A stretch of 42,792 nucleotides of DNA from positions 1 through 42,792 of IMG/VR virus record IMGVR_UViG_3300045988_177530, one strand, 5' to 3'. Within the stretch, counting starts at the first letter, position 1. Each line of letters begins with the position of its first letter. Under the pieces are notes generated by a model, which had not been told where the DNA came from, did not search any database, and saw only the letters and a list, made by a program, of their open reading frames with translations. Position numbers and translations under genes: made by a program. The DNA is from a virus. Positions 6,900 through 29,850 of the stretch are shown here, piece by piece.

Positions 6900-7889
6900 A
6901 TGACAAACGTTACTGGGTACACTAAGGCCGGCGTTGACAGGCTGGTCGCACCGCTATTCTCCTCGATCTCACCTTTCACGGTCGGCGGACACTACTACTC
7001 CCCGATCACGTATTTCTGGCCCGATTTCTACAACGAGGGTCAGGCCGGAAAGATCTCAAAATGGGCCAAGACACTGGCTTACGGGAATACTCTCGGCTAC
7101 GTGATCATGAACCGTTCCACAGGCGATTGGTCTGCCAAGGATAATGACTTTCTTACTCAGGCTCAGCGCGCCCGGGCAGCAGGGGTAAAGAGGATTCTCT
7201 GGTATATTCCTACCCGCTACGGTGTCGCGTCGCTCGCCAAGAATGATGCCGCTAGGAACGGCGTGCCCGACCCGGACAAGTTCACGCGCGAATACATCAT
7301 GCAACTGTGCGCCAACCTACGCTCCCAGTACGATGGTCTTTTCCAGGGAGTATTCTTGGACGAGGTAATCAACGGCTGGGGGGCACAGTCCGGACGGGTC
7401 GGTTGGTATGGTGATCTCGTCGGCGAAATTCGACGCACCTATGGCAAGAATTTTACAATCGCTATCAACCCTGGTAGCAATATTACTGAGGCCGTGTGCG
7501 CGCTCGATTTCGACGTGTGCATGAGTTTCGAGAACACTGCCGCCAAGTACTTGATGGATGACCCTAATAATCCGATTGCGAATGATGTGATGCGTGCGCA
7601 GCCGTCCACCAAGTGGTGGCATGTCATTCATGGGGTTACGAAAGAGAATTTCCGACAGGTAATCGATCGTGCCGCATCATTCGGTGTTTCACATTTGTAT
7701 GTGACCGACGGCGAGCTGGTGCAGGGTGAGGGCGGCCAGTGGGTGCCTGAGAAGAACCCTTACCAGAATCCTCCGTCGGATTGGATCATGGAACGCGTGG
7801 TCGCTTGGCATGGCGGCTACCTCGGTTTGGCTGAGCGTGTTGCCGCGTTGGAGGCAAAGGCGACCCCATCGCCGCAGCCTGGCGCCTGA
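6900..7889 (+). CDS. Putative glycoside hydrolase, spherulation-specific family 4-like; candidate exopolysaccharide or cell-wall glycan depolymerase
   Basis: 329-aa ORF, last gene of the tail module. By eye, YVIMNRSTGDW, ILWYIPTRYG and GVFLDEV resemble the conserved blocks of the spherulin-4 family. Not verified by search. Confidence 0.45.
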   Translation: MTNVTGYTKAGVDRLVAPLFSSISPFTVGGHYYSPITYFWPDFYNEGQAGKISKWAKTLAYGNTLGYVIMNRSTGDWSAKDNDFLTQAQRARAAGVKRILWYIPTRYGVASLAKNDAARNGVPDPDKFTREYIMQLCANLRSQYDGLFQGVFLDEVINGWGAQSGRVGWYGDLVGEIRRTYGKNFTIAINPGSNITEAVCALDFDVCMSFENTAAKYLMDDPNNPIANDVMRAQPSTKWWHVIHGVTKENFRQVIDRAASFGVSHLYVTDGELVQGEGGQWVPEKNPYQNPPSDWIMERVVAWHGGYLGLAERVAALEAKATPSPQPGA

Positions 7890-7890: not shown

Positions 7891-7906
7891 TGTTTCACGT
7901 GAAACA
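7891..7906. promoter_or_regulatory. Perfect chromosomal-type parS site (ParB/Spo0J binding consensus), copy 1
   Basis: TGTTTCACGTGAAACA, a perfect 16-bp palindrome that starts 2 nt after the stop codon at 7887..7889. Confidence 0.7.
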
Positions 7907-7945
7907 TTCCCCCTCACCACGATTTCTGTGGTGAGGGGGAATGTT
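7903..7945. terminator. Bidirectional intrinsic-terminator-like hairpin between convergent gene blocks
   Basis: 18-bp perfect stem aacattccccctcaccac / gtggtgagggggaatgtt with a 7-nt loop. The left arm overlaps parS by 4 nt. Confidence 0.7.
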
Positions 7946-7965
7946 TTCGCGTCCGACACAGGAGA

Positions 7966-8433
7966 CTATAGTCCTAGGCGTTGGTAGTTTCCTCCGTGCT
8001 CGCGAGCAATATCGTCTAGGACGCCCATGAGATCGGAACGCGCATCGTCCTGAACGTCGATCGACGGTGAGTTCAGGATCGAGTGAATCGTGTTATTGAT
8101 CTCTCGGAATTGACGAGCAGCGATTGCGTCGCATTCTACACTGTCCCATCGCCGTGCTAGACGGCGCGCAAGATAAGACGTATTCTCACCGCTTGTTTTA
8201 TGGTAAACGCCTACAACATTCAATGGCCAGCCCCAGATGATCCATTTACTGAAAGTACCGCCGTCACCGTTTTCTACAGTGACGTCAATTCCAACACCCT
8301 TATGCTGGTCGTGCCACTTCAGATGAGCGGCCATGTGTGCTTCGTCAATGTCACATGCGTCGGGCTTCGGAAGCCACAACTGTGTGAGGCTGATCTCGTG
8401 CTCAATCTCCAGCATTGAGTTATTCGCTGTCAT
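7966..8433 (-). CDS. Hypothetical protein
   Basis: 155-aa ORF. Its start overlaps the upstream stop (ATGA at 8430..8433). Confidence 0.6.
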   Translation of the reverse strand: MTANNSMLEIEHEISLTQLWLPKPDACDIDEAHMAAHLKWHDQHKGVGIDVTVENGDGGTFSKWIIWGWPLNVVGVYHKTSGENTSYLARRLARRWDSVECDAIAARQFREINNTIHSILNSPSIDVQDDARSDLMGVLDDIAREHGGNYQRLGL

Positions 8434-8684
8434 GAGACGCTCCGCAAAAGTATGCTACAGCGCACTGCAGAATGGTTGGGGCCTTCGGACTCTCTGTGAG
8501 TCCATCCTGCTGAGACACCGCGCTTCGTCGTCACCACAACGCCGTCATCGGTGACCTCGATCTTTCCCGGCAAGCACTCAACGGTGGTGACTTTGCCGCG
8601 GTCGGAAATGCGAGGCGACGGGGTGATATTACGCAATTCCTTAACAATCGCCAACGCGATTTCCTGACGATCAATCTTGTCCAT
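8430..8684 (-). CDS. Hypothetical protein
   Basis: 84-aa ORF, translationally coupled on both sides. Confidence 0.5.
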   Translation of the reverse strand: MDKIDRQEIALAIVKELRNITPSPRISDRGKVTTVECLPGKIEVTDDGVVVTTKRGVSAGWTHRESEGPNHSAVRCSILLRSVS

Positions 8685-9202
8685 TATTCCACCTCCATAG
8701 CCGATGGTGTGACACCGACCTGTCCCTGATAATGCGACCCCAGACCGCCGGTGCCGTACGGCATACTGGCAGGCCTATCCAGATCCTCAAAAGCAATCTG
8801 CGCAATCCTATCCCCCGGATGAAGAATGGCGGGCTTGGTGGAGTGCAGGTTAGCGATCTCCAGGGTCACGTTTCCTTGGAATCCCGGGTCAATGTATCCC
8901 GCAGACACATGGACGAGAATTCCGCGTCGCGCCCACGACGACTTGCCCTCCACCCTGGCTACTAGGTCGGCAGGCACGCTCACTTTCTCCTGGGTGGACG
9001 CGAGAATAAACTCACCCGGCAATAACTCGTAACCATTCTCACCGATGGTGACATTCTCGTCACCGTGACGGTAGACGATAATGTTCTCGTCTAACCGCAC
9101 TTCTACCGACGCCGGTTGAATGGACAGCGGCTTATGCCAGTCAGAGATGAGTTCACCCCAATCGATTCTGCGTCGGAGAGTGAAATCACTCAGTGTAGCC
9201 AT
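8684..9202 (-). CDS. dcd: dCTP deaminase (dUTPase-fold family)
   Basis: 172 aa. Blocks EGKSSWARRGILVHVSAGYIDPGFQGNVTLEIAN and LHPGDRIAQIAF match the conserved Dcd/Dut-fold motifs (GKSS-aRlGl, aG-IDPGF-G-TLE). Confidence 0.75.
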   Translation of the reverse strand: MATLSDFTLRRRIDWGELISDWHKPLSIQPASVEVRLDENIIVYRHGDENVTIGENGYELLPGEFILASTQEKVSVPADLVARVEGKSSWARRGILVHVSAGYIDPGFQGNVTLEIANLHSTKPAILHPGDRIAQIAFEDLDRPASMPYGTGGLGSHYQGQVGVTPSAMEVE

Positions 9203-9656
9203 TCTGGCAGCTCCCGTCTTCGTTTTCCTTGATCATATGAACCTTGTAACCTTTATCGCACAGAATTGCTTTGGCTTCAAGAGCAAGGGCAGTCTTCTCT
9301 CCCGGGATGATTCCTACCGTGCCTCTACCGCGCTCTGACAGTACGATCGCACAGACGTACGCATTATCGTCCGATGAGTCGCTGTAAGTGAGCACATGCC
9401 CGCCTATCTCATCCGAATATGTGCACCTAGTAAAAGTAACTCTCCCTTCCTGCCATGAACGCAAGACAAGTGTTACTATCTGAATATGCTGCACGGTACG
9501 CATAAGCTCGCGGATCGCGGTGGACGGATCGGTCGAATAATTTCTGATAGTGAAGTTGCAGTCGGTGGCATGCATAAACGCGGCCGCGCCCCACAGTTCA
9601 CCACATTTCGCCAAATCAAAGAAAACAATCTCAACAACGTTCCCCATAATGCTCAC
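9186..9656 (-). CDS. Hypothetical protein
   Basis: 156-aa ORF in a tightly packed operon, with 4-nt and 17-nt overlaps to its neighbours. Confidence 0.55.
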   Translation of the reverse strand: MSIMGNVVEIVFFDLAKCGELWGAAAFMHATDCNFTIRNYSTDPSTAIRELMRTVQHIQIVTLVLRSWQEGRVTFTRCTYSDEIGGHVLTYSDSSDDNAYVCAIVLSERGRGTVGIIPGEKTALALEAKAILCDKGYKVHMIKENEDGSCQNGYTE

Positions 9657-10654
9657 TTTTCTTCCGGGATATAGTTGCTAAGGTGATCGTGTGAAATGGC
9701 GGATACGAACTCTGTGAGCCGGTCTCGAACCTCCCTGGCGCGATCCGCTGGGGCGAGCTGTCTATCGATAGTGTCCCAGTAGACGTTTCGCAGAATTGCG
9801 ATCACCGTCTGACCTCCCCGCTCTGCGGCGAGTTCACGCAGATACCACGCCGCCTTCCCCATATCAACATTCTCGTCGACACCATTCTTGTGACCTGCCC
9901 TGAAAATATACTTCAGGGCACTCCCGGTCAGATAGTCTTTGTCGCGAATGAAAGTGATGGGCTCAGGGTCGAGGGTTGCATAGTGTGACGGGTGAGTTAC
10001 CTCATTCTCATACGCATTATCCTCGACACGCCCGTCATTCTTCTCTGTGATATAGAGAGTGTCATCACACAAGGTCAACTCACAGTGCTGCTCGTCGAAC
10101 GTGAGAAACGCTCCCTCACCATTCTCACCCTTATACCAAATGCACCATTCGCCAGTGAAATACCGACAAACCTTCCTGACGGGCGCATCATAATCGTCGG
10201 AGACGCGGAAACGAATCGGTTCGTCCGTGAACTTCAACTCACAGCCAGGATCAATCTGATAGCCTACGATTCGCCGCCGATACCAACCGTCGCTCTTGTG
10301 CTCCAAATAAACACAACGACGACTCCAACATTCAATACGCCATTCACTACTAAGATAGCGGCGGACGTGCACCTCCCAAAACCCACCATGTGGCACTACC
10401 TTCAAAACATACTCATACACGCCATTCGGGTAGTAAATCTTCTCATACTCATCATCTACAGGTGACACAACATAATCTCCTCTTTTCGTCCGCGTGATCG
10501 AATAGTCGTTGTACTTGAAATAGTGTCTCCGCTCTACAGCACCCTGAACGGAATCGAAACCAATCCCCTTACTGTCGCCGGTTTGCGCTATGATTCTCTC
10601 TTTACTACCGTCCGGCAAGTACAGCCAAGCCGTCTTCAAAAACACCGTGTCCAT
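9653..10654 (-). CDS. DUF3310 (SaV / T7 gp1.7-like) domain protein with a long aromatic- and Cys-rich N-terminal extension
   Basis: C-terminal HPSHYATLDPEPITFIRDKDYLTGSALKYIFRAGHKNG...MGKAAWYLRELA matches the DUF3310 signature (HPSHY ... KY--R ... KA--YL). Confidence 0.6.
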   Translation of the reverse strand: MDTVFLKTAWLYLPDGSKERIIAQTGDSKGIGFDSVQGAVERRHYFKYNDYSITRTKRGDYVVSPVDDEYEKIYYPNGVYEYVLKVVPHGGFWEVHVRRYLSSEWRIECWSRRCVYLEHKSDGWYRRRIVGYQIDPGCELKFTDEPIRFRVSDDYDAPVRKVCRYFTGEWCIWYKGENGEGAFLTFDEQHCELTLCDDTLYITEKNDGRVEDNAYENEVTHPSHYATLDPEPITFIRDKDYLTGSALKYIFRAGHKNGVDENVDMGKAAWYLRELAAERGGQTVIAILRNVYWDTIDRQLAPADRAREVRDRLTEFVSAISHDHLSNYIPEEK

Positions 10655-10672
10655 AGCCGTTTTCTCGCTATT

Positions 10673-11002
10673 TCAGTTGCCGAGAGTGCCGACCGTGGCA
10701 AAGTAGGCGAAGAATACTTGGAGCCACCAAAAAGCACGCCACGCCAGAGACAGTCCGATAACTCCGATGATGAGGGCGACTGCACCCATGACCATGCCTT
10801 CGCCAGTGGACCGCGGCTTGCGGAGCCATGTTACGAAACGATTCGTAGGGCGCGGCGGCGCCATCGCACTGAGCGGCACAGACCATGCGGGGGGCGCCGG
10901 GGTAGGCCGAGGCGGCGGAGGAGGTGCGGGGGTAGGCGCGCTAGTCGCGGGCGGAGGAGGCGCGGGAGTAGGCGCCGACGGGGCACTCGAAAAAGTAGAC
11001 AT
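10673..11002 (-). CDS. Pro-rich membrane protein
   Basis: 109 aa. N-terminal APTPAPPPP-type repeats, then hydrophobic helices GMVMGAVALIIGVIGLSLAW and WWLQVFFAYFATVG. Confidence 0.5.
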   Translation of the reverse strand: MSTFSSAPSAPTPAPPPPATSAPTPAPPPPPRPTPAPPAWSVPLSAMAPPRPTNRFVTWLRKPRSTGEGMVMGAVALIIGVIGLSLAWRAFWWLQVFFAYFATVGTLGN

Positions 11003-11014
11003 AATAGTTGTTCC

Positions 11015-11203
11015 TCACTTTCCGTTCAGTTCTGCCATGAGACGGTTAGTCCAACCGTCACTGTAGTTGAAATTCGTGCGCTTAGTGTGACGTGCGCTCT
11101 TGATTCTCTTCGCCCGATTCCTCTTGTGCTCTTGAAACTCGATCGTCTTGTGACGGACCTCGTTCTCGCGTCCGTCCATACGTTGAATAGCGGGGTATTT
11201 CAT
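11015..11203 (-). CDS. Small basic hypothetical protein
   Basis: The ATG at 11203 overlaps the upstream stop (ATGA). 62 aa, rich in K/R. Confidence 0.45.
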   Translation of the reverse strand: MKYPAIQRMDGRENEVRHKTIEFQEHKRNRAKRIKSARHTKRTNFNYSDGWTNRLMAELNGK

Positions 11204-11595
11204 GATTTGACCCACTCGATTCCGTCGCCGAGAAGCCCACGCAGATCATTGATCAGGTTATGCGCGTTCCCAAATTCCTCCTCGGCGATATCGAAAACTC
11301 TGTAAACGTTCCCTTCAGTGCAGACGACCAGGAAGGAATTGTGGGCGCATTCGGGGACGAAAACATTGCGGACGTTTCCGATGAGGGCGGGCCGCTGAAC
11401 AGGAATTGCCTGTACGAGGTCGGCCCCAGTGAGAACTGCGACGGCAGTCACCCGCTCAACCGGGATGCCCCGAAATTCGTTCTCACCTTTCTCATACCCC
11501 TTTGCGGGGAAGTGAATCTTGGTGCCCTTCAGATTGGTGAATATGGCACCTCCCGTAGTTTTGCATGATCCGTATCCGGTGCGACGGCGTGCCAT
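11200..11595 (-). CDS. Hypothetical protein
   Basis: 131-aa ORF preceded on the minus strand by GAGAAGAGGATTACT ATG. Confidence 0.55.
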   Translation of the reverse strand: MARRRTGYGSCKTTGGAIFTNLKGTKIHFPAKGYEKGENEFRGIPVERVTAVAVLTGADLVQAIPVQRPALIGNVRNVFVPECAHNSFLVVCTEGNVYRVFDIAEEEFGNAHNLINDLRGLLGDGIEWVKS

Positions 11596-11632
11596 AGTAA
11601 TCCTCTTCTCAAAATATGTGTGTGATGGTGGG

Positions 11633-11668
11633 TGGTGGTGGCCCGTCGCCCATGACGGGCCACCACCA
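11633..11668 (-). terminator. Hairpin downstream of the 98-aa acidic gene
   Basis: 15-bp perfect stem tggtggtggcccgtc / gacgggccaccacca with a 6-nt loop, 12 nt beyond the stop at 11680. Confidence 0.5.
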
Positions 11669-11679
11669 TTATGCGTGTG

Positions 11680-11976
11680 TCAGTGCTCCAGCCACTGTTC
11701 AGCCAGGTAGGCGATGGTCTCGTCAGTCAGGGCGGAAAGTCCTTCGTGGGCGATGGTGAATCCGTCGGCGTCGTACTGCCAGAGTCCCCAGGAGACGACG
11801 TCGTCGCACACGTGGAGTCCGAGCGCCTGCCCGCCGTCGGTGGTGCTTCGCTTGAGGCCGATGGTCTCGCCGGTCTCGTTCACCCAGTAGTCCGTGTCGC
11901 CCCAAGCGTTGGCGGCGGTGCCGACGGCGTAGGCGATGTCGGTGTCGGTGGTGATGCTCTCAATGGTGGTGGTCAT
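11680..11976 (-). CDS. Small, strongly acidic hypothetical protein
   Basis: ATG at 11976 preceded by GAGAGGACAAG. 98 aa with 17 D/E against 2 K/R by my count. The longer 201-aa ORF has no ribosome-binding-site support. Confidence 0.6.
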   Translation of the reverse strand: MTTTIESITTDTDIAYAVGTAANAWGDTDYWVNETGETIGLKRSTTDGGQALGLHVCDDVVSWGLWQYDADGFTIAHEGLSALTDETIAYLAEQWLEH

Positions 11977-12229
11977 TGTCTTGTCCTCTCTATCCCCGGC
12001 TGGGTGGCTTGTCCTCCCTGCCGATGTCTTAATCATGCTCCCCCGTGCGCCATGGGTCAACCCTACGCAACGGTGACCCATCCCACCAAACCAATGTTGT
12101 GCGGAGTATTGACAGACACTGGGCACATGTGGTACACGCGCACGCACGTACCTATATGTATCGAGAAGACACTCGGGCGTCCATGATAAAATTAAGCCAC
12201 CGAAAACCTTTACGAAAGGCGGTGCAAAA

Positions 12230-13678
12230 TTGGCAAATTCCGTCACAGAATATGCTGCGTCGGAAATGAAATATTGGTGCACCACAGGCGACTACGGGGG
12301 TACCGGTTATGCCCAGGATAACCGGTGGACCTGCTACTGGAATAGCAATGATGCCGGCTGGAAAACGGGCCCCGGCGACATGGATTGCAGTAGCGGCGTA
12401 GCGGGCGCCTACAATATTGCATTCCACAATGTCTGGGGAACCGGCTGGGACGACCCGATCATGTTCCCGCGGACCGGCGAAACATGGACAGAAACCCTGA
12501 ATTCCCTGGCCGCAAATCGCGGTTTCATGGATATCGGGGACACTTGGTATGGGTCCACTCCGTCGGGAGGATTCCATGTCGGCGACATGGTCCTGAAAAC
12601 TACCGGAGACGGCGGACATGTCGCAATGTGCGTGCGCGAAGACGACGGCTCATTCAACGCGGGCGATCCGCTTCTCGCTGAGGCGTGGATTAACGAGAAT
12701 GGTGACATTTCGGAAGGTCAGATGGGGGATCAGACCGGCTACGAAACTCACGTAGTCCGGTACAGTAGTCACCCGATGACTGTCGCGGCCTCATGGTCCA
12801 CATGCATCCGTTTCGGAAAGAGGACTGACTCCGATAACGGCCATGAGTCTGCCGGCTCGTACCGCCTTTCCTCTATTCAGGAGGCTGTTCTCAGGGCCGC
12901 CGATGCAGAGAATTGTCCGTGGTGGGCCGCCTTGGCGTGCTTGTGGATGGAGACCGGCGAACGTGGCGCGAACATTTATGGTCACGACGCCGGCGGTGCC
13001 GGGCCGCACGGTGAGGAAGTAACCGAGGAGAATTTCCGCGAATTCCTTGCGGCAATTCGAGACGGTGAAACCTCGAACGGCGTTGGTCCGCTGCAGATCA
13101 CGTATTCGGGCTATTTCTTGCAGGATCCGGATCGTGAATGGTGGATGCCGGAGAAGTCGGCTGAGGTTGGCTGCCGTATTCTTCGTGACCTTATTAACGC
13201 TGAAGGCGATTCTTATGAGGCTTTGAAGCGTGTTGGGTCGCGGTATAATTCAGGGAATCCGTATGACGCGTATGAGTCTTATGGGATTCTTTTCAGTAAT
13301 CGTTGCAAGTCTTGGTATGATTATGGTCGTCCGTCTGGGGGCGCCGGAGAGGAATTTTGGGATATGAGCGAGGGCGTTGATCTGCTCAGGGAGATTCGCG
13401 ATCTTTTCCGCAGTGGAAAGGCGGGGGATCATTTCGCGGGCGACATGAATTGGTACGCTAAGGCCACCTATGAGGAGGTCAAGTCCATTCACGCGTCCGT
13501 GGATCAGATTCTGCATTCTGTGACTCCGGGTCAGGAGAATGTTCGTGAGGCGGGCGCGATTTATGGTGCTGTGAACGAGATTCGTAAGGCCGTGTCGACG
13601 CCGTCGTCTTTGCAGGCGCATGATGGTGTTGTAGGGTCTCCCGTTCCCGAGTCTCCTGCCCCGGAGCAGAATTCCTGA
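12230..13678 (+). CDS. Endolysin with an N-terminal cysteine amidase/peptidase (Amidase_5/CHAP-like) domain and a central lytic-transglycosylase-like domain
   Basis: 482 aa. GDMDCSSGVAGAY ... GDMVLKTTGDGGHVAMC forms a Cys/His pair. LWMETGERGANIYGHD ... NGVGPLQITYSGY is SLT-like. Confidence 0.7.
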   Translation: MANSVTEYAASEMKYWCTTGDYGGTGYAQDNRWTCYWNSNDAGWKTGPGDMDCSSGVAGAYNIAFHNVWGTGWDDPIMFPRTGETWTETLNSLAANRGFMDIGDTWYGSTPSGGFHVGDMVLKTTGDGGHVAMCVREDDGSFNAGDPLLAEAWINENGDISEGQMGDQTGYETHVVRYSSHPMTVAASWSTCIRFGKRTDSDNGHESAGSYRLSSIQEAVLRAADAENCPWWAALACLWMETGERGANIYGHDAGGAGPHGEEVTEENFREFLAAIRDGETSNGVGPLQITYSGYFLQDPDREWWMPEKSAEVGCRILRDLINAEGDSYEALKRVGSRYNSGNPYDAYESYGILFSNRCKSWYDYGRPSGGAGEEFWDMSEGVDLLREIRDLFRSGKAGDHFAGDMNWYAKATYEEVKSIHASVDQILHSVTPGQENVREAGAIYGAVNEIRKAVSTPSSLQAHDGVVGSPVPESPAPEQNS

Positions 13679-13804
13679 CACGGAATGTTGGCATTTATCG
13701 CGGCCTGTTCGCTCGCTGTTATGCTGGGTGTCGTTCCACGATAGATGTAACATGCGGGGAGCTTCACTCTCTTCCCTCTCCGTGATCTCCTGTGGTAGTG
13801 GTAG

Positions 13805-13849
13805 AGCGAGTCTCCGGACGGCCAATGAATGATCGTCCGGAGACTCGCT
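13805..13849 (+). terminator. Intrinsic terminator after the endolysin gene
   Basis: 16-bp perfect stem agcgagtctccggacg / cgtccggagactcgct, followed by ttgttg. Confidence 0.65.
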
Positions 13850-13934
13850 TTGTTGCGTGCTATACTTCTCTACGTACCGCTTATTGGTTAATACACAAAT
13901 ATTTTCCTACGCGTTCCGACGGTGCAATAAGAGA

Positions 13935-14008
13935 ATCCTATCGCCCTCATGTTTTCCTACACACATTAACCCAACATGCTCTAGGAATCGGCATGAGGGC
14001 GATAGGAT
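13935..14008 (+). promoter_or_regulatory. 17-bp perfect inverted repeat whose 3' arm covers the likely ribosome-binding site of the next gene
   Basis: atcctatcgccctcatg (13935..13951) pairs with catgagggcgataggat (13992..14008). The downstream ATG is at 14021. Confidence 0.35.
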
Positions 14009-14020
14009 ACAATCCATCCA

Positions 14021-14251
14021 ATGAAAGTGAAAATTAGAGTGACTAAGTCGCTTTATGTTGCCATCATTTTTGCGGCCGTTATGGTGACGGCAAACACTGC
14101 GCTCATGGTGTACGAAGATTTCACCAATGGCACTATGAACGTGACTCGCGATTCTCTGTGGTGTGTTGGCGCGATTATTCTTTGGGTCAGCGTACGCACC
14201 GTACGGTTCATGCGGACCGTCGGCTATCACCCTGGCTTCCACAGAAAGTAA
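14021..14251 (+). CDS. Small membrane protein with 2 predicted TM helices; lysis-cassette member
   Basis: 76 aa. Hydrophobic segments LYVAIIFAAVMVTANTALMVY and LWCVGAIILWVSV. Confidence 0.5.
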   Translation: MKVKIRVTKSLYVAIIFAAVMVTANTALMVYEDFTNGTMNVTRDSLWCVGAIILWVSVRTVRFMRTVGYHPGFHRK

Positions 14252-14258
14252 CTAAAAC

Positions 14259-14305
14259 ATAACATTCCCCGCCCAGCAATGATGACGCTAGGCGGGGAAT
14301 GTTAT
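14259..14305 (+). terminator. Terminator-like hairpin
   Basis: 15-bp stem ataacattccccgcc / ggcggggaatgttat with a 17-nt loop. It shares the AACATTCCCC/GGGGAATGTT arms with the hairpin at 7903. Confidence 0.5.
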
Positions 14306-14363
14306 ATAATTCCTATTGCAGCCCCGCAAGGTAATCACAACAAAAGAGGACATTAGATATACG

Positions 14364-14732
14364 ATGCTTAATTTCTTGAATGATGTTCTCTCTGACGCCA
14401 CCCTAGTAGCTTTGGCCGCTCTCACCGGCACAATTTTCTCTAACGTAACGCAGCGCAAGAATGCTCGCGACCAGGAACAGATCTCAATCCTGGACATTAC
14501 CGTCCGATCTCTTTCCGAGAGAGTGACCGCCCTGGAGGCCAGTCTTGCGGCCGCCGAAAGAGCGGCAGACCTGGCAGAAGATGGCCGCCGTCGGGCTGAA
14601 GTGAAGTGGTGGGAGGCGGTCTCTTTCGCGCACACTGTCCTCGATTGGGGGCGGTCTCTGAAAATTCTGATACCATCTGATAAAGAGGACTCAATCCCTA
14701 CTGAGCCTCAAATTCCAGATTCCATGAGGTGA
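14364..14732 (+). CDS. Membrane-anchored coiled-coil protein in the lysis cassette
   Basis: ATG at 14364 preceded by aaagagga (the alternative TTG at 14316 is less likely). N-terminal ATLVALAALTGTIFSNV, then LEASLAAAERAADLAEDGRRRAE. Confidence 0.5.
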   Translation: MLNFLNDVLSDATLVALAALTGTIFSNVTQRKNARDQEQISILDITVRSLSERVTALEASLAAAERAADLAEDGRRRAEVKWWEAVSFAHTVLDWGRSLKILIPSDKEDSIPTEPQIPDSMR

Positions 14733-14741
14733 TTCATAAAT

Positions 14742-14978
14742 ATGTTTACTCCTGAGGTCCGCAAGGCCCTTTATGCCCTGCTCACCGCTGTTCTCGGTGT
14801 TTTCGCCGCTTTCAATGTTATTTCCGCGGACCAGGCGTCTCAGTACGCTGACGCTGTTACCCAGATTGTTGGTGCTCTGACTCTGGCGCTGGCTACGTAT
14901 CACACTCACCCCGCTGTGACGCCCGGCCGTCACGCCGCCGGTGATGGCGAGGCCGCCAACGAGGACAAGGTCGCCTGA
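14742..14978 (+). CDS. Putative holin with 2 TM helices
   Basis: 78 aa. ALYALLTAVLGVFAAFNVI and AVTQIVGALTLALATY, with a charged C-terminus. Last gene of the lysis cassette. Confidence 0.55.
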   Translation: MFTPEVRKALYALLTAVLGVFAAFNVISADQASQYADAVTQIVGALTLALATYHTHPAVTPGRHAAGDGEAANEDKVA

Positions 14979-14994
14979 CCTCCGCCGTTCATAG

Positions 14995-15040
14995 AACATT
15001 ACTGCCCCCTACCGGATAGTCGGTGGGGGGCAGTAATGTT
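14995..15040. terminator. Bidirectional terminator-like hairpin
   Basis: 20-bp stem aacattactgccccctaccg / cggtggggggcagtaatgtt with one G-T pair and a 6-nt loop. The right arm overlaps parS copy 2 by 4 nt. Confidence 0.7.
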
Positions 15041-15052
15041 TCACGTGAAACA
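15037..15052. promoter_or_regulatory. Perfect chromosomal-type parS site, copy 2
   Basis: TGTTTCACGTGAAACA. Confidence 0.7.
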
Positions 15053-15061
15053 CGGGAGACA

Positions 15062-15077
15062 TGTTTCACGTGAAACA
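15062..15077. promoter_or_regulatory. Perfect chromosomal-type parS site, copy 3
   Basis: TGTTTCACGTGAAACA, 25 bp centre-to-centre from copy 2. It ends 1 nt before the stop codon of the RuvC-like gene (15079..15081). Confidence 0.7.
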
Positions 15078-15078
15078 T

Positions 15079-15579
15079 TCACCTCCGCTCCGTGTCGTCA
15101 CCGATGATGCGGGCGATCACACCCTCGTCGTGGCGTTTAGTGACTGCCCACAGGAAAAGATGACGCCCCGCGTCCCGTGCGTCGTCCGCGTCCGGCTGGC
15201 CCACGTCAGTTCCTGTGGGCCAAAAACCAAGAATTTTCAGAACGTTATCGTGCATGGTTGTTTTTGCCATTGCGGGAGTCTGCCATACGATATCCCCGAT
15301 CTCCCATTCCAGTATAGAGTTGATTTTTACTGGGGTGAGGTCTGCGAGAAAATTGTTGCCAGGTCGAAGATCGAACTGTTCACACACGACAATGTCTGGG
15401 GCGAATTCGTTTCGTGTGGCCAGAATGTCGTAGGCGCTGGCCGTCCAATGCTCATACTTGAATTGCTGAACATGAATGATTGAGAATTCGCGGTCGTCGT
15501 GGAAGTCTCCGATGACGATTCCTGTTGACTTGCCGGGATCAACGGCCATCACCCGCTGCATCATACTTTTCCCCCTCAT
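15079..15579 (-). CDS. RuvC-like Holliday junction resolvase
   Basis: 166 aa. AVDPGKSTG, VVCEQF and DADDARDAGRH match the RuvC-fold acidic catalytic motifs. The start could instead be the internal MMQRV. Confidence 0.7.
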   Translation of the reverse strand: MRGKSMMQRVMAVDPGKSTGIVIGDFHDDREFSIIHVQQFKYEHWTASAYDILATRNEFAPDIVVCEQFDLRPGNNFLADLTPVKINSILEWEIGDIVWQTPAMAKTTMHDNVLKILGFWPTGTDVGQPDADDARDAGRHLFLWAVTKRHDEGVIARIIGDDTERR

Positions 15580-15580
15580 T

Positions 15581-16624
15581 TCAATTTCGCAGGCTTCGCC
15601 GCGACTTGTTCACGTTGACGATACTTTTCGTAGTGTCTGTGCGCACACCGTCTACTTCGAGCCACAACGCGCCCGGCATCACCGGCTCCCCGCGCCCTTT
15701 CTTGAGAGCCCACGGCGTACCCGGGTCGCTCGGGAAAGGCAGATGCTTGTAGCACCATATTGCGCAATCCTGCGTAGAATCGAAACAAAAGTCCTCTTTC
15801 GGCACGTATCTTCTCATGTCGTAAATGCGTCGCATGAGTTTCGGGATAAGCCATTCTGGTACTTCTCTGTACATGCGGATTGACGGGCTAGTGCACGGGC
15901 AGACCACAGTCCTACCGCCACTGAAATGTGAAACGCGAAGCCACTTGTTTTCCCCGCAATTCACACAACGCATGTGGAAATGCTTATGACCATCTCTCAT
16001 AATCTTCCATTCGGGGGACACTACTTCCCATTGCTGGAAGCGTCGCCCCACCATTTCCGGCTGCACGCCAGTCATCGTCTTATAGGTTTTGGCAGGGTGA
16101 AGAATAAGACGATCGTGAGCTTCCTTCTCGTTCTCGGCGCACACTACTGAAATCTCGCCGGGGCGGAATACTCCGTTCTCTGTGGCGAATTCCCAATCGA
16201 ACACGACTGAAGGTTTGAATTCTTTGTAACACCATTCGATAGCCGACATCATGCCGTCGAACTCGAAATTATCTATACCGTTTCGTTCCCGCCATTTCCA
16301 AATCTTAAGACGAATGTCATTGTAGGAGCGATACGGCATAAGCGTGTCATTCACCTCACAGTATTGATGTGAGTACGGCGCGTCTGGGGGACGATTCAGT
16401 ACTATGTCGAGATTGCATGGGGCGATCGGTTTAGTAATGTCGGGGCGCGTGAAACGCCACTTATTGTCCTCGGGGACTTCCAAATACTTGAAACACCATT
16501 CGATAGCGGCGTCAATCGAGGGAAAAAGGAAATTCTCGCTACTAGTGCGGTAGCTGAGCTGGGTGAGTCTGTTAGCGACTATCCTGTACTGCTCATATGA
16601 TGGTTGCGTCATTTGTGCTTTCAT
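15581..16624 (-). CDS. Hypothetical protein with three internal repeats and a Cys-rich putative zinc ribbon
   Basis: Repeats ENFLFPSIDAAIEWCFKYL, DNFEFDGMMSAIEWCYKEF and EDFCFDSTQDCAIWCYKHL. CVNCGENKWLRVSHFSGGRTVVCPC. Spacing to GGAAGAGAG suggests the ATG at 16612 may be the real start. Confidence 0.6.
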   Translation of the reverse strand: MKAQMTQPSYEQYRIVANRLTQLSYRTSSENFLFPSIDAAIEWCFKYLEVPEDNKWRFTRPDITKPIAPCNLDIVLNRPPDAPYSHQYCEVNDTLMPYRSYNDIRLKIWKWRERNGIDNFEFDGMMSAIEWCYKEFKPSVVFDWEFATENGVFRPGEISVVCAENEKEAHDRLILHPAKTYKTMTGVQPEMVGRRFQQWEVVSPEWKIMRDGHKHFHMRCVNCGENKWLRVSHFSGGRTVVCPCTSPSIRMYREVPEWLIPKLMRRIYDMRRYVPKEDFCFDSTQDCAIWCYKHLPFPSDPGTPWALKKGRGEPVMPGALWLEVDGVRTDTTKSIVNVNKSRRSLRN

Positions 16625-16640
16625 CTCTCTTCCTTATTGG

Positions 16641-16684
16641 GTTGAATAGCGGGGGCAACAATCATGTTGCCCCCGCTATTCAAC
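16641..16684. terminator. Very strong hairpin between two minus-strand genes
   Basis: 20-bp perfect stem gttgaatagcgggggcaaca / tgttgcccccgctattcaac with a 4-nt loop. Confidence 0.55.
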
Positions 16685-16701
16685 CTATGCGACCATGTGT
16701 G

Positions 16702-17292
16702 TCAGAAAACTACCGACCACGAGGTATCGGTATTCTTTTTGGCCTCGAAATCAATGGAAGAAATCTCCGCCCTAGGAGGCCAGAACGCGGGCTTCGGAGC
16801 GCCATCCTCACCGAGAACTGTGACACCGTTCTCGTCCTGCTCGTATGCGGGGCGACCATAATCGTCAAGACGAGGCCTGGGCTTGCTCATTCGCGTCACC
16901 AATGTTGCGTGAGCGCCCTCCAGATTCTCGCACACTTTCTTCACGGTCGTATCGATCTTCTGCGGTGAGAGAAGATCGGCCCTCTCCTTGGCGTCGGCCG
17001 GCCAAAGACCAGCGGCGCTGAAATACTTCGGAATATTGAAGTGAATGAAAGTCTTTCCATTCTTGTTGATAGTGAAAACTGTGCGGTCAGTGAGCGCCTT
17101 TCCGGCATCCTCATCATCGCCGTCAATCATCCAATCGGTGACAAGCATCGGCCTGCCACTCTTGGAAGTGGTCATTTCAGCCTTAGTGATGAATGCTGAG
17201 TGCTTTCCGGGCTTGGGCGGCTCGAAGTTACCTCCGCCGGTGGCGACTTCCAGTGATGAGAGGTCGGTTCCAAAGTTGAAGCCAGTTGCCAT
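16702..17292 (-). CDS. DUF669-like protein; putative ssDNA-binding partner of the Sak4-type ATPase
   Basis: 196 aa. The N-terminal NFEPPKPGKHSAFITKAEMTTSKSGRPMLVTDW resembles the DUF669 signature. AGGAG lies 10 nt upstream. Adjacent to the AAA ATPase gene. Confidence 0.5.
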   Translation of the reverse strand: MATGFNFGTDLSSLEVATGGGNFEPPKPGKHSAFITKAEMTTSKSGRPMLVTDWMIDGDDEDAGKALTDRTVFTINKNGKTFIHFNIPKYFSAAGLWPADAKERADLLSPQKIDTTVKKVCENLEGAHATLVTRMSKPRPRLDDYGRPAYEQDENGVTVLGEDGAPKPAFWPPRAEISSIDFEAKKNTDTSWSVVF

Positions 17293-17337
17293 AATTATTG
17301 TGCTCCTATAAGTCGGTGGTAAAGAATCGCGGTTGGA

Positions 17338-17451
17338 TCAGTTCTCGCTGTCGGTGGGCTTGCTACGGAGTGCTTCCCTGATCGCGTCGGCGGCGATAGT
17401 GAGAGTCTCAGCGGAGACACCACGGTCAGCGGTAACGGTGATCTTAGCCAT
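17338..17451 (-). CDS. Small hypothetical protein (37 aa), below the ORF-track cutoff
   Basis: Translates as MAKITVTADRGVSAETLTIAADAIREALRSKPTDSEN. Preceded by GGGAAGAGAGAAACATATT, the same Shine-Dalgarno-type motif as neighbouring genes. Confidence 0.45.
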   Translation of the reverse strand: MAKITVTADRGVSAETLTIAADAIREALRSKPTDSEN

Positions 17452-17479
17452 AATATGTTTCTCTCTTCCCATGTTTTGG

Positions 17480-18232
17480 TTAGTGGCTAGTGATGTAATT
17501 GTGAATCTTGGTCATGCTCGGATTCCCCATTGCCGGGGGGAACCCGCGTGACTGTTGCTTCGTCACAACGTTCGGCTTGCGAGTGTACAGTACTGGCACG
17601 GTGATTTCTTCCCCGTCCCCATTGTCCACGTTCGCCCATTCCATGTAGCCGACGAAATTGAACAGGGCGGGGATGCGCTGCCCAGACTTCTGTCCCTCAA
17701 AAGACGGAGCAATGAAAACCTCCCCAGTAACCTCACTGCTCTCACGTGCGGAATGCGTGATAGCAATGAATGAAATGTCGGGGGCGTTCAAGAATACGCT
17801 GATCGCCTTCAACAAGGAATCGTATACCGCCCGCCATTTCGTCCAAGTGTCATTCGACACGGCCTCGTAGTGGGTCAGAATGAGTTCCTGGCACTTATCC
17901 AACGTGTCGAACACTACTGTCTTGTAGGGGAATTCTGCACGATTGCGTGCGATATTGTCGCAAAGATTGGCGCAATCAAGCCACTTATCGCAATGCACGA
18001 CAGTAAGGTTTGCAGGGTTCCCCCAATCCCGTACCGGGAGCGTGCCGGATTCGAAATCAACATACAAAACGGGCGACATGTCGTCCACCTGTGACGCCGT
18101 GGCTGCGAGCGAAGTTTTGCCGACGCCACTCACGCCATGAATAAGCATATTGAAATAATTATTCTGTTCCGGGTTCACGACCGTCATTCCGAGACGGGCG
18201 AGAGTGTCTTCGAAAGTCATGTTATGTTTCAC
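17480..18232 (-). CDS. RecA-fold AAA ATPase (Sak4 / AAA_24-like recombination ATPase)
   Basis: 250 aa. Walker A MLIHGVSGVGKTS and Walker B-like TVVFDTLD. Confidence 0.7.
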   Translation of the reverse strand: MKHNMTFEDTLARLGMTVVNPEQNNYFNMLIHGVSGVGKTSLAATASQVDDMSPVLYVDFESGTLPVRDWGNPANLTVVHCDKWLDCANLCDNIARNRAEFPYKTVVFDTLDKCQELILTHYEAVSNDTWTKWRAVYDSLLKAISVFLNAPDISFIAITHSARESSEVTGEVFIAPSFEGQKSGQRIPALFNFVGYMEWANVDNGDGEEITVPVLYTRKPNVVTKQQSRGFPPAMGNPSMTKIHNYITSH

Positions 18233-28110: not shown

Positions 28111-28455
28111 ATGAACACCACCATCCACCGCACCGAGGACCTCGCCCTCGAGACCGTCGAGTTCGGCGTCATCTACCGGGTCCACGCCCCCCGCACCGGC
28201 GAACCCTGGACCCTCTACAAGGTAGACGACGACTGCGGCGTCGACTCCATTGAGCCGTTGGACGTCCCTGACGAATGGGATGACGCCTACGAGTATCCGA
28301 TGGGGTACAGGGGCATTTGGTTTCGTTTAGCTCGCCTCGCCATGGACGCCTATCTCGCTCACGCCATCCTTGAGGTGGCCCTCGTCCCCGTCGTCGACGA
28401 GGAGGTGGACGCCGACTCGCGCGCCCTGCTGTACCGCTTCACCTGGCCCTACTGA
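28111..28455 (+). CDS. Acidic hypothetical protein, monocistronic
   Basis: 114 aa with 23 D/E against 9 K/R by my count. RBS GGAAGGAAAGAGAAA upstream and its own terminator downstream. Confidence 0.65.
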   Translation: MNTTIHRTEDLALETVEFGVIYRVHAPRTGEPWTLYKVDDDCGVDSIEPLDVPDEWDDAYEYPMGYRGIWFRLARLAMDAYLAHAILEVALVPVVDEEVDADSRALLYRFTWPY

Positions 28456-28475
28456 CCCGACCGGTCCGAGGACGA

Positions 28476-28513
28476 CTGAGGCCCCACCCTCCACGACGAG
28501 GGTGGGGCCTCAG
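28476..28513 (+). terminator. Intrinsic-terminator-like hairpin
   Basis: 15-bp perfect stem ctgaggccccaccct / agggtggggcctcag with an 8-nt loop, 20 nt after the stop. Confidence 0.6.
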
Positions 28514-28583
28514 TGCGTCTACTGTGGAAGGGCGGTGTGCGATGGGGGGTGTCGGCCGCCACGGCGCCTATCTTTCACAGTTT

Positions 28584-28780
28584 CCGTTAACCTCCCGTTC
28601 ATCTTGTTTACCTTCCGTTTACTTTCTACGCATGCCGGTTGTTTGCTAGCAACTGGCCTTCTAGGGACAAAACACCCGTTTGTGTTACTACAATGTTGGT
28701 GCGTGTCGTCACACTTTCTACCCCTGTAACAAGGGTTTGTGTCAGTGTGTTTCGCGTGATTGCAACGTTTAGTCCCCGTT
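28584..28780 (+). repeat. Five copies of YCCGTTY in a G+T-rich non-coding stretch
   Basis: CCGTT at 28584, 28595, 28615, 28676 and 28776, all in the same orientation. Confidence 0.4.
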
Positions 28781-28943
28781 TCAAGTTGTTTTGTTGGCAG
28801 TGTTCGTAGCTGGGACTTTAGTCTATATGCTACACTCGAGTAGACGAATCGTCGAAGACGATCGGCGGCGTAGCCGCTGAGGAGCCCTAGCGACGCAAGC
28901 GAGCGTCAGCGCCGCCGGGTGTTTTCGAGGAGCTCGCCACTGT

Positions 28944-29014
28944 GTTGGGCCCAACCTATACTCTTAAAAGAGTACTAGAATTAGACACTGTCTAACACAT
29001 CTAGACAGTGTCTA
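28944..29014. promoter_or_regulatory. Cluster of operator-like palindromes
   Basis: GTTGGGCCCAAC (28944..28955). TACTCTT-aa-AAGAGTA just downstream. TAGACACTGTCTA (28982..28994) and TAGACAGTGTCTA (29002..29014) with centres 20 bp apart. Confidence 0.5.
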
Positions 29015-29738: not shown

Positions 29739-29850
29739 CCCCCCCGCCATTCCAAACACAGAAAGGCGGAACGCGAAAAAGCGAGGAGAAAGGAAGAGAG
29801 AATAGCAAGAGAGCAGCAAGAGACAAGAAACACAATGGTGTTCGGGGATA

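What the first reader, a model, noticed from the sequence alone, without database searches (positions are those of the whole stretch)
14995..15077. Tandem pair of perfect parS sites fused to the terminator between the lysis cassette and the early operon
Two further exact copies of TGTTTCACGTGAAACA (15037..15052 and 15062..15077) lie 25 bp apart centre to centre. They sit in the 100-nt gap between the holin stop and the RuvC-like gene stop. Copy 2 shares 4 nt with the right arm of a 20-bp hairpin, the mirror image of the arrangement at 7891. So all three parS sites lie at convergent-transcription boundaries and are physically merged with terminators. I recognised no ParB (no GxRRxRA-type box) or ParA in any translated ORF, so any bound ParB would have to be the host's. 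Possible roles include loading host ParB/SMC onto phage DNA, positioning or partitioning an episomal phage genome, or titrating ParB away from the host origin.
Basis: partly seen in the sequence, partly recalled or inferred. Interest (0 to 1): 0.85.

Follow-up and report, generated by a model that had tools for sequence, protein, structure and literature searches.

The report
Host centromere sites on a phage
An uncultured phage of human oral bacteria carries three perfect, strongly conserved copies of the bacterial chromosome's centromere sequence (parS) but no gene for the protein that binds it, so it most likely borrows the host's segregation protein, a trick so far shown only for Bacillus phage phi29.

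Summary
TGTTTCACGTGAAACA occurs exactly at 7891, 15037 and 15062, against 0.17 matches expected even with 3 mismatches allowed. Each locus abuts a strong hairpin in a gap between convergent genes.

The window is a complete circular siphovirus genome of about 42.7 kb from human oral metagenomes. Its host is probably Actinomyces or a relative. In relatives averaging 87% nucleotide identity, the sites are exact in 45/48, 42/52 and 37/40 cases, against about 11% expected if neutral. The spacer between the tandem sites varies freely in sequence and length. The hairpins change by compensatory substitutions, whereas the 16-mers stay fixed. That pattern indicates a sequence-specific DNA site, not an RNA structure.

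No ParB, ParA or integrase was detected in any ORF. The best reading is that these are loading sites for the host's chromosomal ParB. Binding itself is untested.

The idea is not new. Phage phi29 carries five host-type parS sites that host Spo0J uses for spore entrapment. I also found tandem exact parS pairs in at least 26 unrelated groups of viral contigs and in a cultured Glutamicibacter phage.

Verdict: a new member of a known kind. The function in a non-sporulating host remains open. Interest is moderate to high, about 0.6.

The parts
7891..7906 (.). parS site 1, an exact canonical 16-bp palindrome. It lies 1 nt after the stop codon of the tail gene 6900-7889.
   Evidence: It is present in 40/40 relatives that hold this region and exact in 37. 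All 3 variants change only position 1.
7903..7945 (.). Bidirectional terminator-like hairpin T1: 18-bp arms and a 7-nt loop. Its first 4 nt (AACA) are the last 4 nt of parS site 1.
   Evidence: Sequence. The RNA fold gives -53.4 kcal/mol with z = -8.9. In relatives the loop varies and the stem changes are compensated. Three relatives carry a second parS on the far side of the hairpin.
14995..15040 (.). Bidirectional terminator-like hairpin T3 between the lysis cassette and the early operon. Its last 4 nt (TGTT) are the first 4 nt of parS site 2.
   Evidence: The folds have z = -8.5 and -7.5. Seven stem pairs show double-sided compensatory changes across 47 distinct relatives.
15037..15052 (.). 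parS site 2, the hairpin-proximal copy of the tandem pair.
   Evidence: It is exact in 42/52 relatives, with pi = 0.026. Most variants affect the outermost positions 1 and 16, and a change at position 16 is compensated in the other hairpin arm.
15053..15061 (.). Variable spacer between the tandem sites.
   Evidence: In relatives it is about 6-10 nt long, has no invariant column and has pi = 0.384.
15062..15077 (.). parS site 3, the distal copy. It lies 1 nt from the stop codon of the RuvC-like gene.
   Evidence: It is exact in 45/48 relatives that have it, with pi = 0.005. It is cleanly absent in 4 relatives, which have a single site.
14742..14978 (+). Holin-like gene, the last gene of the lysis cassette. 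It converges on the tandem pair.
   Evidence: Pfam Phage_holin_9, E = 3e-6.
15079..15579 (-). RuvC-like resolvase gene, the last gene of the minus-strand replication and recombination operon. Its transcript reads through sites 3 and 2 before reaching hairpin T3.
   Evidence: PHROG 1981 at E = 2e-24 and PHROG 159 (RuvC-like) at E = 1.6e-5.
6900..7889 (+). Tail-module gene (Spherulin4-like), the last gene of the plus-strand structural operon. Its transcript reads through site 1 before reaching hairpin T1.
   Evidence: Pfam PF12138, E = 5.6e-14.
7966..8433 (-). Last gene of the minus-strand block 7966-12285, which includes a dCTP deaminase and a DUF3310 protein. It converges on site 1.
   Evidence: ORF map and coding score. 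The same gene is called in relatives.

Best explanation
The three 16-mers are real centromere-type parS sites. Selection keeps them on a phage genome that encodes no ParB, so the host's chromosomal ParB must be what binds them.

Proposed mechanism:
- A host ParB dimer recognises each palindrome.
- ParB binds CTP, closes into a clamp and slides onto the flanking DNA. In the actinobacterium C. glutamicum, one site supports spreading over about 32 kb. Three sites would therefore coat most of this 42.7-kb genome.
- The phage DNA then looks like an origin-proximal partition complex to the host's ParA, polar-scaffold and SMC machinery.
- That machinery positions the phage DNA and hands it to daughter cells. 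This would pay off when infection is slow or stalled, for example in a carrier state in biofilm. It parallels phi29's use of Spo0J-parS to get into spores.

The two tandem copies act as independent loading sites, because their spacing drifts between 22 and 27 bp.

The sites sit beside bidirectional terminator hairpins for two likely reasons. These convergent junctions are among the few non-coding, promoter-free gaps in the genome. The AAACA/TGTTT ends of parS also double as the A/U-rich base and tail of the hairpins.

What is shown: presence, exactness, enrichment, purifying selection on the sequence itself, absence of a detectable phage ParB, and the published precedent.

What is inferred: ParB binding, spreading and the benefit to the phage.
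For: Identity. The 16-mer equals the canonical parS of B. subtilis and M. tuberculosis and matches the 16-bp consensus used by C. glutamicum ParB.

Non-randomness. There are 3 exact sites against 0.17 expected. In IMG/VR the enrichment over composition-matched palindromes is at least 10- to 60-fold.

Selection.
- 59 related contigs average 87% nucleotide identity to the window.
- The sites are exact in 45/48, 42/52 and 37/40 relatives, against about 11% expected if neutral.
- pi is 0.005 and 0.026 in the two sites, against 0.384 in the spacer between them.
- The spacer varies in length while both 16-mers stay exact.
- The commonest variants fall at the outermost positions 1 and 16 (12 of 30 mismatches, 21 of which are in the hairpin-proximal site), which spares the 14-bp core.

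Not an RNA-structure constraint. The neighbouring hairpin has 7 pairs with double-sided compensatory changes. The 16 possible parS-parS pairs have none.

No phage ParB, ParA or integrase. No copy was found in 185,579 species-representative genomes.

Precedents.
- Phage phi29 carries five host-type parS sites, and host Spo0J segregates its genome into the prespore (PMC2731898).
- SGI1 carries orphan parS mimics that hijack a plasmid's ParABS (PMC10954446).

Recurrence. Tandem exact pairs occur in at least 26 unrelated viral-contig clusters, including phi29-like podoviruses and other tailed phages. They also occur in the cultured Glutamicibacter phage Voltaire, which has no annotated ParB.
Against: - No binding data exist.
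- The host is not identified. It is only inferred to be an oral Actinomyces-like bacterium. The inference rests on a 55% portal match to Actinomyces phage LC001, a 61% endolysin match to A. israelii, and the human oral sample source.
- There is no sign of a dormant or episomal state. I found no repressor or partition gene and no copy in bacterial assemblies. The benefit of being partitioned is therefore conjecture.
- Actinomyces do not sporulate, so the demonstrated phi29 benefit cannot apply as such.
- The sites are dispensable in some lineages. One relative (L146) has both tandem sites decayed, and four have only one of the pair.
- LC001 and three sister phage families with the same endolysin type have no parS in the regions examined.
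- Both flanking operons are transcribed towards the sites. That orientation should oppose outward movement of SMC or ParB rather than help it. This point is inference from published work on SMC and transcription.
Confidence: 0.62

Rival explanations
1. ParB sink. The first step is the same: host ParB binds. The benefit differs. Hundreds of replicating phage genomes, each with three high-affinity sites, drain ParB from the host origin. This dissolves the host partition complex, stops SMC loading on the chromosome, and so arrests host segregation or division during lytic growth.
For: - The phage looks strictly lytic. It has no integrase or repressor, and no prophage or episome copy was found in the genome collection.
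- The sites are perfect consensus and duplicated, which maximises affinity and dose.
- SGI1's parS mimics destabilise the plasmid whose ParB they borrow, in a dose-dependent way.
Against: - No direct evidence.
- In most bacteria loss of ParB is a mild, slow phenotype. According to the literature read, C. glutamicum parAB deletions give about 20% anucleate cells. That is hard to turn into a benefit within one lytic cycle.
- A pure titration role does not explain why only 2 to 4 sites are kept rather than many.
Confidence: 0.18
2. Self-marking or anti-defence. ParB or SMC loaded at parS makes the phage DNA resemble chromosome. That would protect it from systems that attack small foreign replicons, such as MksBEFG/Wadjet-type condensin defences or nucleases excluded by ParB coating.
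For: - In C. glutamicum, SMC is loaded through ParB-parS on the chromosome, while the MksBEFG condensin acts only on plasmids.
- The motif recurs convergently in many unrelated phage lineages, as counter-defence traits often do.
Against: - Nothing in the papers I read shows that parS protects DNA from any defence system.
- No PADLOC family matched any of the 10 unannotated phage proteins I tested.
- The idea is pure inference.
Confidence: 0.08
3. RNA-level element. The tandem palindromes pair with each other into a perfect hairpin of about 17 bp at the 3' end of the early transcript. Together with the neighbouring hairpin this would terminate transcription or stabilise the mRNA. The match to parS would then be incidental.
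For: - The fold of 14975-15085 on either strand predicts the tandem pair as one long hairpin stacked on T3, at -58.5 and -58.9 kcal/mol with z of -8.5 and -7.5.
- parS supplies the UGUUU tail and AAACA base of the adjacent hairpins.
Against: - A structural constraint allows covariation. The adjacent hairpin shows it in 7 pairs and the parS-parS stem in 0 of 16.
- Each arm is itself an exact palindrome and equals one specific 16-mer out of 65,536 possible palindromes.
- Site 1 is single, and four relatives have a single site at the tandem locus.
- The same 16-mer recurs in unrelated phages in other contexts, including inside genes.
Confidence: 0.05
4. The palindrome is the operator of an unrecognised phage-encoded DNA-binding protein, for example a regulator acting at operon ends. 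That protein either mimics ParB specificity or competes with ParB.
For: About half of the ORFs have no family assignment. The two largest unknown early proteins could not be modelled (pLDDT 35 and 45).
Against: - No HTH, ParB or other DNA-binding domain was detected in any ORF.
- Unrelated phages with entirely different gene sets carry the same 16-mer. The shared factor must therefore be something common to their hosts, and chromosomal ParB is the obvious candidate.
Confidence: 0.05
5. Neutral passenger. The sites arrived with a piece of host DNA, or arose from terminator flanks, and have no function.
For: parS ends (AAACA/TGTTT) fit the A/T-rich base that all three strong hairpins of this phage share. 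That includes the hairpin at 14259-14305, which has no parS.
Against: - Near-perfect conservation at 13% mean genome divergence, while adjacent non-coding bases are saturated with changes.
- No homologous host locus was found.
Confidence: 0.02

Closest known systems
Host-type parS sites of Bacillus phage phi29 (five sites, bound by host Spo0J/ParB, used for spore entrapment; Meijer et al. 2005 as summarised in PMC2731898)
   Same: - A virulent phage with no ParB of its own carries several copies of the host chromosome's centromere sequence.
- The host segregation machinery is proposed, and for phi29 supported by evidence, to move the phage genome.
- Uncultured phi29-like podoviruses and the phi29-like Glutamicibacter phage Voltaire carry tandem exact pairs like the one here.
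   Different: - This phage is a 42.7-kb siphovirus with a circularly assembling genome, not a protein-primed 19-kb podovirus.
- The probable host, an oral Actinomyces-like bacterium, does not sporulate, so the demonstrated benefit cannot be the same.
- I did not look for Spo0A-box-like companion sites.
- The sites are perfect consensus and sit against bidirectional terminator hairpins.
Chromosomal parS of Actinomycetota (M. tuberculosis, M. smegmatis, C. glutamicum)
   Same: - The 16-bp sequence is identical.
- The sites are clustered and intergenic. In C. glutamicum 9 of 10 sites are intergenic.
   Different: - The sites are on a phage, not near oriC, with no adjacent parAB operon.
- Flanking transcription converges on the sites.
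SGI1 parS mimics that hijack the IncC plasmid ParABS (PMC10954446)
   Same: A mobile element without its own ParB carries two copies of another replicon's parS. It gains stability from them and titrates the donor system.
   Different: - The victim there is a helper plasmid, not the chromosome.
- The element is an integrative island in Gammaproteobacteria.
- The sequence family differs.
Plasmid-prophage partition cassettes (P1 parABS; actinobacteriophage parABS, Dedrick et al. 2016, cited)
   Same: Phage DNA uses a ParB-parS complex for inheritance.
   Different: - Those phages encode their own ParA and ParB next to their own, non-chromosomal parS, and they are temperate.
- This phage encodes neither protein, and its site is the chromosomal consensus.

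Membership tests
Chromosomal-type parS (ParB/Spo0J binding site) | 16-bp palindrome matching the consensus TGTTNCACGTGAAACA | tested here: met
   Three exact matches to TGTTTCACGTGAAACA. This sequence is identical to the published B. subtilis and M. tuberculosis site.
Chromosomal-type parS (ParB/Spo0J binding site) | Specific binding by ParB, with CTP-dependent loading and spreading | not testable with these tools
   This needs EMSA or BLI with purified ParB, or ChIP-seq in infected cells.
Chromosomal-type parS (ParB/Spo0J binding site) | Sequence itself, not structure, is under purifying selection | tested here: met
   pi is 0.005 and 0.026 in the sites against 0.384 in the spacer. The sites are exact in 124 of 140 instances in relatives. 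There are no compensatory changes, unlike in the adjacent hairpin.
Chromosomal-type parS (ParB/Spo0J binding site) | Lies near oriC and a parAB operon of the same replicon | tested here: not met
   No ParA or ParB domain in any ORF. The sites are orphan sites on a phage.
phi29-type orphan host parS on a ParB-less virulent phage | The phage encodes no ParB of its own | tested here: met
   Pfam and PHROG scans of all sizeable ORFs, plus the precomputed Pfam hits of relatives' called genes, are negative. A very divergent binder cannot be excluded.
phi29-type orphan host parS on a ParB-less virulent phage | The sites match the parS of the phage's own host | tested here: inconclusive
   The host is not identified. 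It is inferred to be Actinomyces-like. The consensus is shared by the Actinomycetota studied so far. The host genome itself was not examined.
phi29-type orphan host parS on a ParB-less virulent phage | Virulent (non-integrating) lifestyle | tested here: met
   No integrase or repressor was detected. No related locus was found in 185,579 species-representative genomes. This is negative evidence only.
phi29-type orphan host parS on a ParB-less virulent phage | Works with host sporulation (spore entrapment, Spo0A boxes) | not tested
   The probable host group does not sporulate (established knowledge). I did not search for Spo0A-type boxes. If the host is Actinomyces-like, this feature cannot be met.
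Plasmid-prophage parABS cassette (P1, actinobacteriophage parABS) | parA and parB genes adjacent to the phage's own parS | tested here: not met
   The genes flanking the sites are holin-like, RuvC-like, a tail protein and an unknown. There is no ParA or ParB anywhere in the genome.
Intrinsic bidirectional terminator (for the adjoining hairpins) | Stable G+C-rich hairpin between convergent genes, maintained by compensatory changes | tested here: met
   Fold z-scores are -7.5 to -8.9. Seven pairs show double-sided changes. The loops vary among relatives.
Intrinsic bidirectional terminator (for the adjoining hairpins) | U-tract after the stem | tested here: inconclusive
   The tails are only UGUUUC or UGUUUU. 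The consensus scan did not flag these two hairpins. Termination itself was not measured.

The most novel reading that the evidence does not exclude
Copying the host centromere is a widespread, convergently evolved phage strategy that is not tied to sporulation.

Under this reading, ParB-less 'lytic' phages of non-sporulating hosts use orphan consensus parS sites in one of two ways. This oral siphovirus family, Glutamicibacter phage Voltaire and other tailed-phage lineages would be examples. Either the sites turn the infecting genome into a host-partitioned episome during stalled infection, or they commandeer or drain ParB and SMC to reorganise the infected cell.

The mirror-image placement of the two loci may add a timing element. 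Early transcripts read through sites 2 and 3, and late transcripts read through site 1. One locus could therefore always be free of RNA polymerase traffic.
Probability: 0.3. Interest if true: 0.8.

Novelty: new member of a known kind. Interest (0 to 1): 0.6.

Why it matters
If host ParB loads on these sites, a phage with no partition genes can plug into the chromosome-segregation and condensin-loading machinery using 16 bp of DNA.

The phi29 case has been treated as a sporulation-specific curiosity. Three results here suggest a general phage-host interface instead:
- A strongly conserved example exists in a phage family of non-sporulating human oral bacteria.
- Tandem pairs occur in at least 26 unrelated viral-contig groups.
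- A cultured actinobacterial phage carries the same arrangement.

That would bear on carrier states and phage persistence in biofilms. It would also bear on how ParB-CTP clamps and SMC deal with foreign DNA. It offers a very small cis element for tagging or stabilising DNA in Actinomycetota.

The natural variants give ready-made comparisons: genomes with a single site, with four sites, and with decayed sites.

Tried and rejected
- Near-identity search of 13500-17500 against GenBank phages found no match.
- Exact look-up of the RuvC-like protein in the assembly index found nothing on record.
- The first scan of species-representative genomes, using the RuvC-like protein, found no relative. So there is no prophage or episome evidence, and the host could not be read off directly.
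- The second scan used an endolysin-family alignment. It gave only distant hits, the best being A. israelii at 61%. This suggests the host but does not prove it.
- Rfam and tRNA scans of the window found nothing.
- The consensus terminator scan did not flag the two parS-adjacent hairpins, because their U-tails are weak.
- Pfam, PHROG and PADLOC scans of unannotated ORFs found no DNA-binding or partition domain.
- PDB sequence searches with three unknown proteins found nothing.
- Single-sequence AlphaFold models of the two largest unknown early proteins were unusable (pLDDT 35 and 45). I ran no fold search on them.
- I tested whether the trait is ancestral. Actinomyces phage LC001 has no parS-like sequence in its whole record. 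Three sister phage families sharing the endolysin type have none within 10 kb either side of that gene. The trait is therefore specific to this family among those relatives.
- Literature searches for phage-borne host parS beyond phi29 found nothing in the held library. One search was badly phrased and useless.
- The 'passenger' and 'RNA hairpin' readings were considered and rejected on the conservation and covariation pattern.

Full report
**1. The observation**

The window contains exactly three copies of TGTTTCACGTGAAACA, at 7891-7906, 15037-15052 and 15062-15077. No further copies appear even with three mismatches allowed. The expected number is 0.17, and none of 100 shuffles reaches three.

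- The tandem copies are 25 bp apart, with a 9-nt spacer.
- They lie in the 100-nt gap between the stop of a holin-like gene (14742-14978, +) and the stop of a RuvC-like gene (15079-15579, -).
- The copy at 15037 shares TGTT with the right arm of a 15-bp-arm hairpin at 14995-15040.
- At 7891 the arrangement is mirrored. parS follows the stop of the last tail-module gene (6900-7889, +) by one base and shares AACA with the left arm of a hairpin at 7903-7945. That hairpin is followed by the end of a minus-strand gene (7966-8433).

Both regions fold far better than shuffled sequence, with z between -7.5 and -8.9.

**2. What the window is**

The two ends of the window overlap by about 55 bases, and G+C is 55%. 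The window is therefore a complete, circularly assembled genome.

The gene content is that of a siphovirus.
- Structural genes: terminase, SPP1-type portal, HK97-type capsid and a 1520-aa tape-measure protein that runs across the window ends.
- A lysis cassette.
- A minus-strand replication and recombination operon: SNF2 helicase, DUF3987 primase-helicase, an AAA_24 ATPase, an exonuclease and the RuvC-like gene.

No GenBank phage is close at the DNA level. The best portal match is Actinomyces phage LC001 at 55% amino-acid identity.

Near-identical endolysin and capsid proteins lie on 42-43 kb contigs from human oral metagenomes. The nearest endolysin in a bacterial genome is in Actinomyces israelii, at 61%. 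I therefore infer an oral Actinomyces or Schaalia-like host. This is not proven.

No ParB, ParA, integrase or repressor domain was found in any ORF I scanned, nor in the precomputed Pfam hits for the called genes of relatives. No related locus exists in 185,579 species-representative bacterial genomes. The phage looks virulent, or at least non-integrating.

**3. Are the sites selected?**

A search with the RuvC-like protein recovered 59 related IMG/VR contigs. They average 87% nucleotide identity to the window, with a range of 84-89%. Almost all of them keep the same three sites.

| Site | Present in relatives | Exact |
|---|---|---|
| Distal tandem copy (15062) | 48 | 45 |
| Hairpin-proximal copy (15037) | 52 | 42 |
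| Site 1 (7891) | 40 | 37 |

At 87% identity a neutral 16-mer would stay exact in about 11% of relatives.

Nucleotide diversity is 0.005 and 0.026 in the two tandem sites. In the spacer between them it is 0.384. The spacer has no invariant column and varies in length, so the start-to-start distance ranges from 22 to 27 bp.

The commonest variants change position 1 or 16 (12 of 30 mismatches), and most of the remaining changes fall in the hairpin-proximal site. This leaves the 14-bp core intact.

Natural variants exist.
- Four relatives have cleanly lost one unit of the pair.
- Three have a fourth site on the far side of hairpin T1, giving parS-hairpin-parS.
- One (L146) has both tandem sites decayed.

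**4. DNA site or RNA structure?**

Because each copy is a palindrome, the tandem pair can also fold as one long hairpin in RNA. The pattern of variation decides between the two readings.
- In 47 distinct sequences, the neighbouring hairpin T3 has seven pairs with changes on both sides. One of these is the pair that involves position 16 of parS: when A becomes G, the partner U becomes C.
- The 16 potential parS-parS pairs show no double-sided change at all.

The hairpins are therefore conserved as structures and the 16-mers as sequences. That is what a protein recognition site looks like.

The overlap between parS and the hairpins has a simple explanation. The ends of parS (AAACA and TGTTT) supply the A/U-rich stem base and tail. 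All three strong hairpins of this phage share that feature, including the one at 14259-14305, which has no parS.

**5. What binds?**

The sequence is the canonical chromosomal parS. It is identical to the B. subtilis and M. tuberculosis site (PMC2346475) and matches the 16-bp consensus used by ParB of the actinobacterium C. glutamicum. In that species a single site supports ParB spreading over about 32 kb and SMC loading (PMC7083940).

The phage has no detectable ParB. Phages with unrelated gene sets carry the same 16-mer. The common factor is therefore most plausibly the hosts' chromosomal ParB. This step is inference, since no binding data exist.

**6. Precedent and breadth**

Phage phi29 carries five host-type parS sites. 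Evidence supports that host Spo0J uses them to segregate the phage genome into the prespore (PMC2731898). SGI1 likewise carries orphan parS mimics that hijack a plasmid's ParABS (PMC10954446). The principle is known.

What I did not find in the held literature is any report outside the phi29 group. Yet the motif is common.
- It occurs in 286 GenBank phage records, including Microbacterium, Gordonia, Arthrobacter, Clostridium and Bacillus phages.
Two composition-matched control palindromes give 12 and 2 stretches.
They fall into at least 26 unrelated sequence clusters with G+C from 27% to 73%.
- The largest other clusters are phi29-like podoviruses. Others are HK97-capsid and Mu-portal tailed phages.
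- The cultured phi29-like Glutamicibacter phage Voltaire, whose host is a non-sporulating actinobacterium, has a tandem pair in an intergenic gap and no annotated ParB.

The trait is not universal. LC001 has no parS-like sequence in its whole record. Three sister families sharing the endolysin type have none within 10 kb either side of that gene.

**7. Mechanism and rivals**

My preferred reading is that host ParB loads at the three sites and spreads over much of the genome. The host segregation apparatus then positions and partitions the phage DNA. This would be useful when infection stalls, and it parallels the phi29 case.

The main alternative keeps the first step but places the benefit in draining ParB from the host origin. 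A more speculative one is protection from defences that target small foreign replicons.

The RNA-element, phage-operator and passenger readings are disfavoured by the data in sections 3 to 6.

One further inference is worth testing. The early operon reads through sites 2 and 3 before reaching T3, and the late structural operon reads through site 1 before reaching T1. The two loci would then be swept by RNA polymerase at different times.

A point against an SMC-loading role is that transcription converges on the sites from both sides.

**8. Verdict**

The finding is a new, very well conserved member of a known kind: orphan host-type parS on a ParB-less phage. It occurs in a new setting, a siphovirus family from the human mouth with a probably non-sporulating host. 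The evidence also shows that the strategy is much more widespread than the literature I could search suggests.

The function is open. Interest is 0.6.

Noticed in passing
window 31088-31215: Seven same-orientation copies of TGTGGAWAA lie within 128 bp, against 0.53 expected in the whole window. TGTGGAWAA is the complement of a DnaA-box-like TTWTCCACA. The copies are arranged as repeats of CTTGTGGAAAACCCTGTGGAAAAC, just upstream of a small ORF (31228-31545) and the large terminase gene. They could be packaging-recognition repeats for a small terminase. Alternatively they could be DnaA boxes or iterons, which would make them a second set of host-factor sites.
   Followed up: partly
window 28455-31500: Relatives have about 1.6 kb with no called gene, corresponding to window 28455-30080. 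The stretch 29000-31500 is extremely strand-asymmetric: AT skew is about +0.5, GC skew falls to -0.36, and the plus strand is A+C-rich with CACACACC-type repeats. No Rfam family matches. The function is unknown and could be an origin, a packaging region or a non-coding RNA.
   Followed up: partly
window 14259-14305: A third strong hairpin (20 pairs) lies upstream of the gene at 14316. It has the same AACATT...AATGTT stem base as the two parS-linked hairpins but no parS. This suggests a shared terminator design or duplicated terminator modules.
   Followed up: no
L122, L150, L157 (about 17600-17690 in locus coordinates; corresponds to window 7945-7960): Three relatives carry an additional exact or near-exact parS on the far side of hairpin T1, giving parS-hairpin-parS. 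The window has a different sequence at that position (TGTTTTCGCGTCCGACA), which may be a decayed copy.
   Followed up: partly
L146 3975-4035: One relative has both tandem sites decayed (TGTTATTTTCTCGTGAGACG and TGTTTCACGTAAACCCA) while the hairpin is intact. This is either a natural loss-of-site variant or a poor assembly.
   Followed up: no
L306 (Glutamicibacter phage Voltaire, OV696617.1) 8742-8776: This cultured phi29-like podovirus infects a non-sporulating actinobacterium. It has two exact parS copies 19 bp apart in the gap between the amidase and major tail genes, and no annotated ParB.
   Followed up: partly
L006, L013, L193, L200, L227 and their clusters (IMG/VR): Large groups of uncultured phi29-like podoviruses (G+C 27-38%) carry tandem exact parS pairs, and so do other tailed phages (G+C 52-56%). 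Each cluster has its own characteristic spacing (26, 30, 34 or 42 bp). L013 has a second pair about 6.6 kb from the first, which echoes the two-locus layout of the window.
   Followed up: partly
L181 (Microbacterium phage OneinaGillian) 2502-2517: An exact parS lies inside an annotated protein-coding gene (gene 86) of a cultured Microbacterium phage. About 50 Microbacterium and 23 Gordonia phage records match the motif.
   Followed up: no
window 40203-42792 joined to 1-1916: The tape-measure gene (1520 aa in relatives, with an NlpC/P60 domain) runs across the arbitrary start of the circular contig. ORF lists for the window therefore show only its last 629 codons, plus spurious minus-strand ORFs at 40831-42625.
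   Followed up: yes
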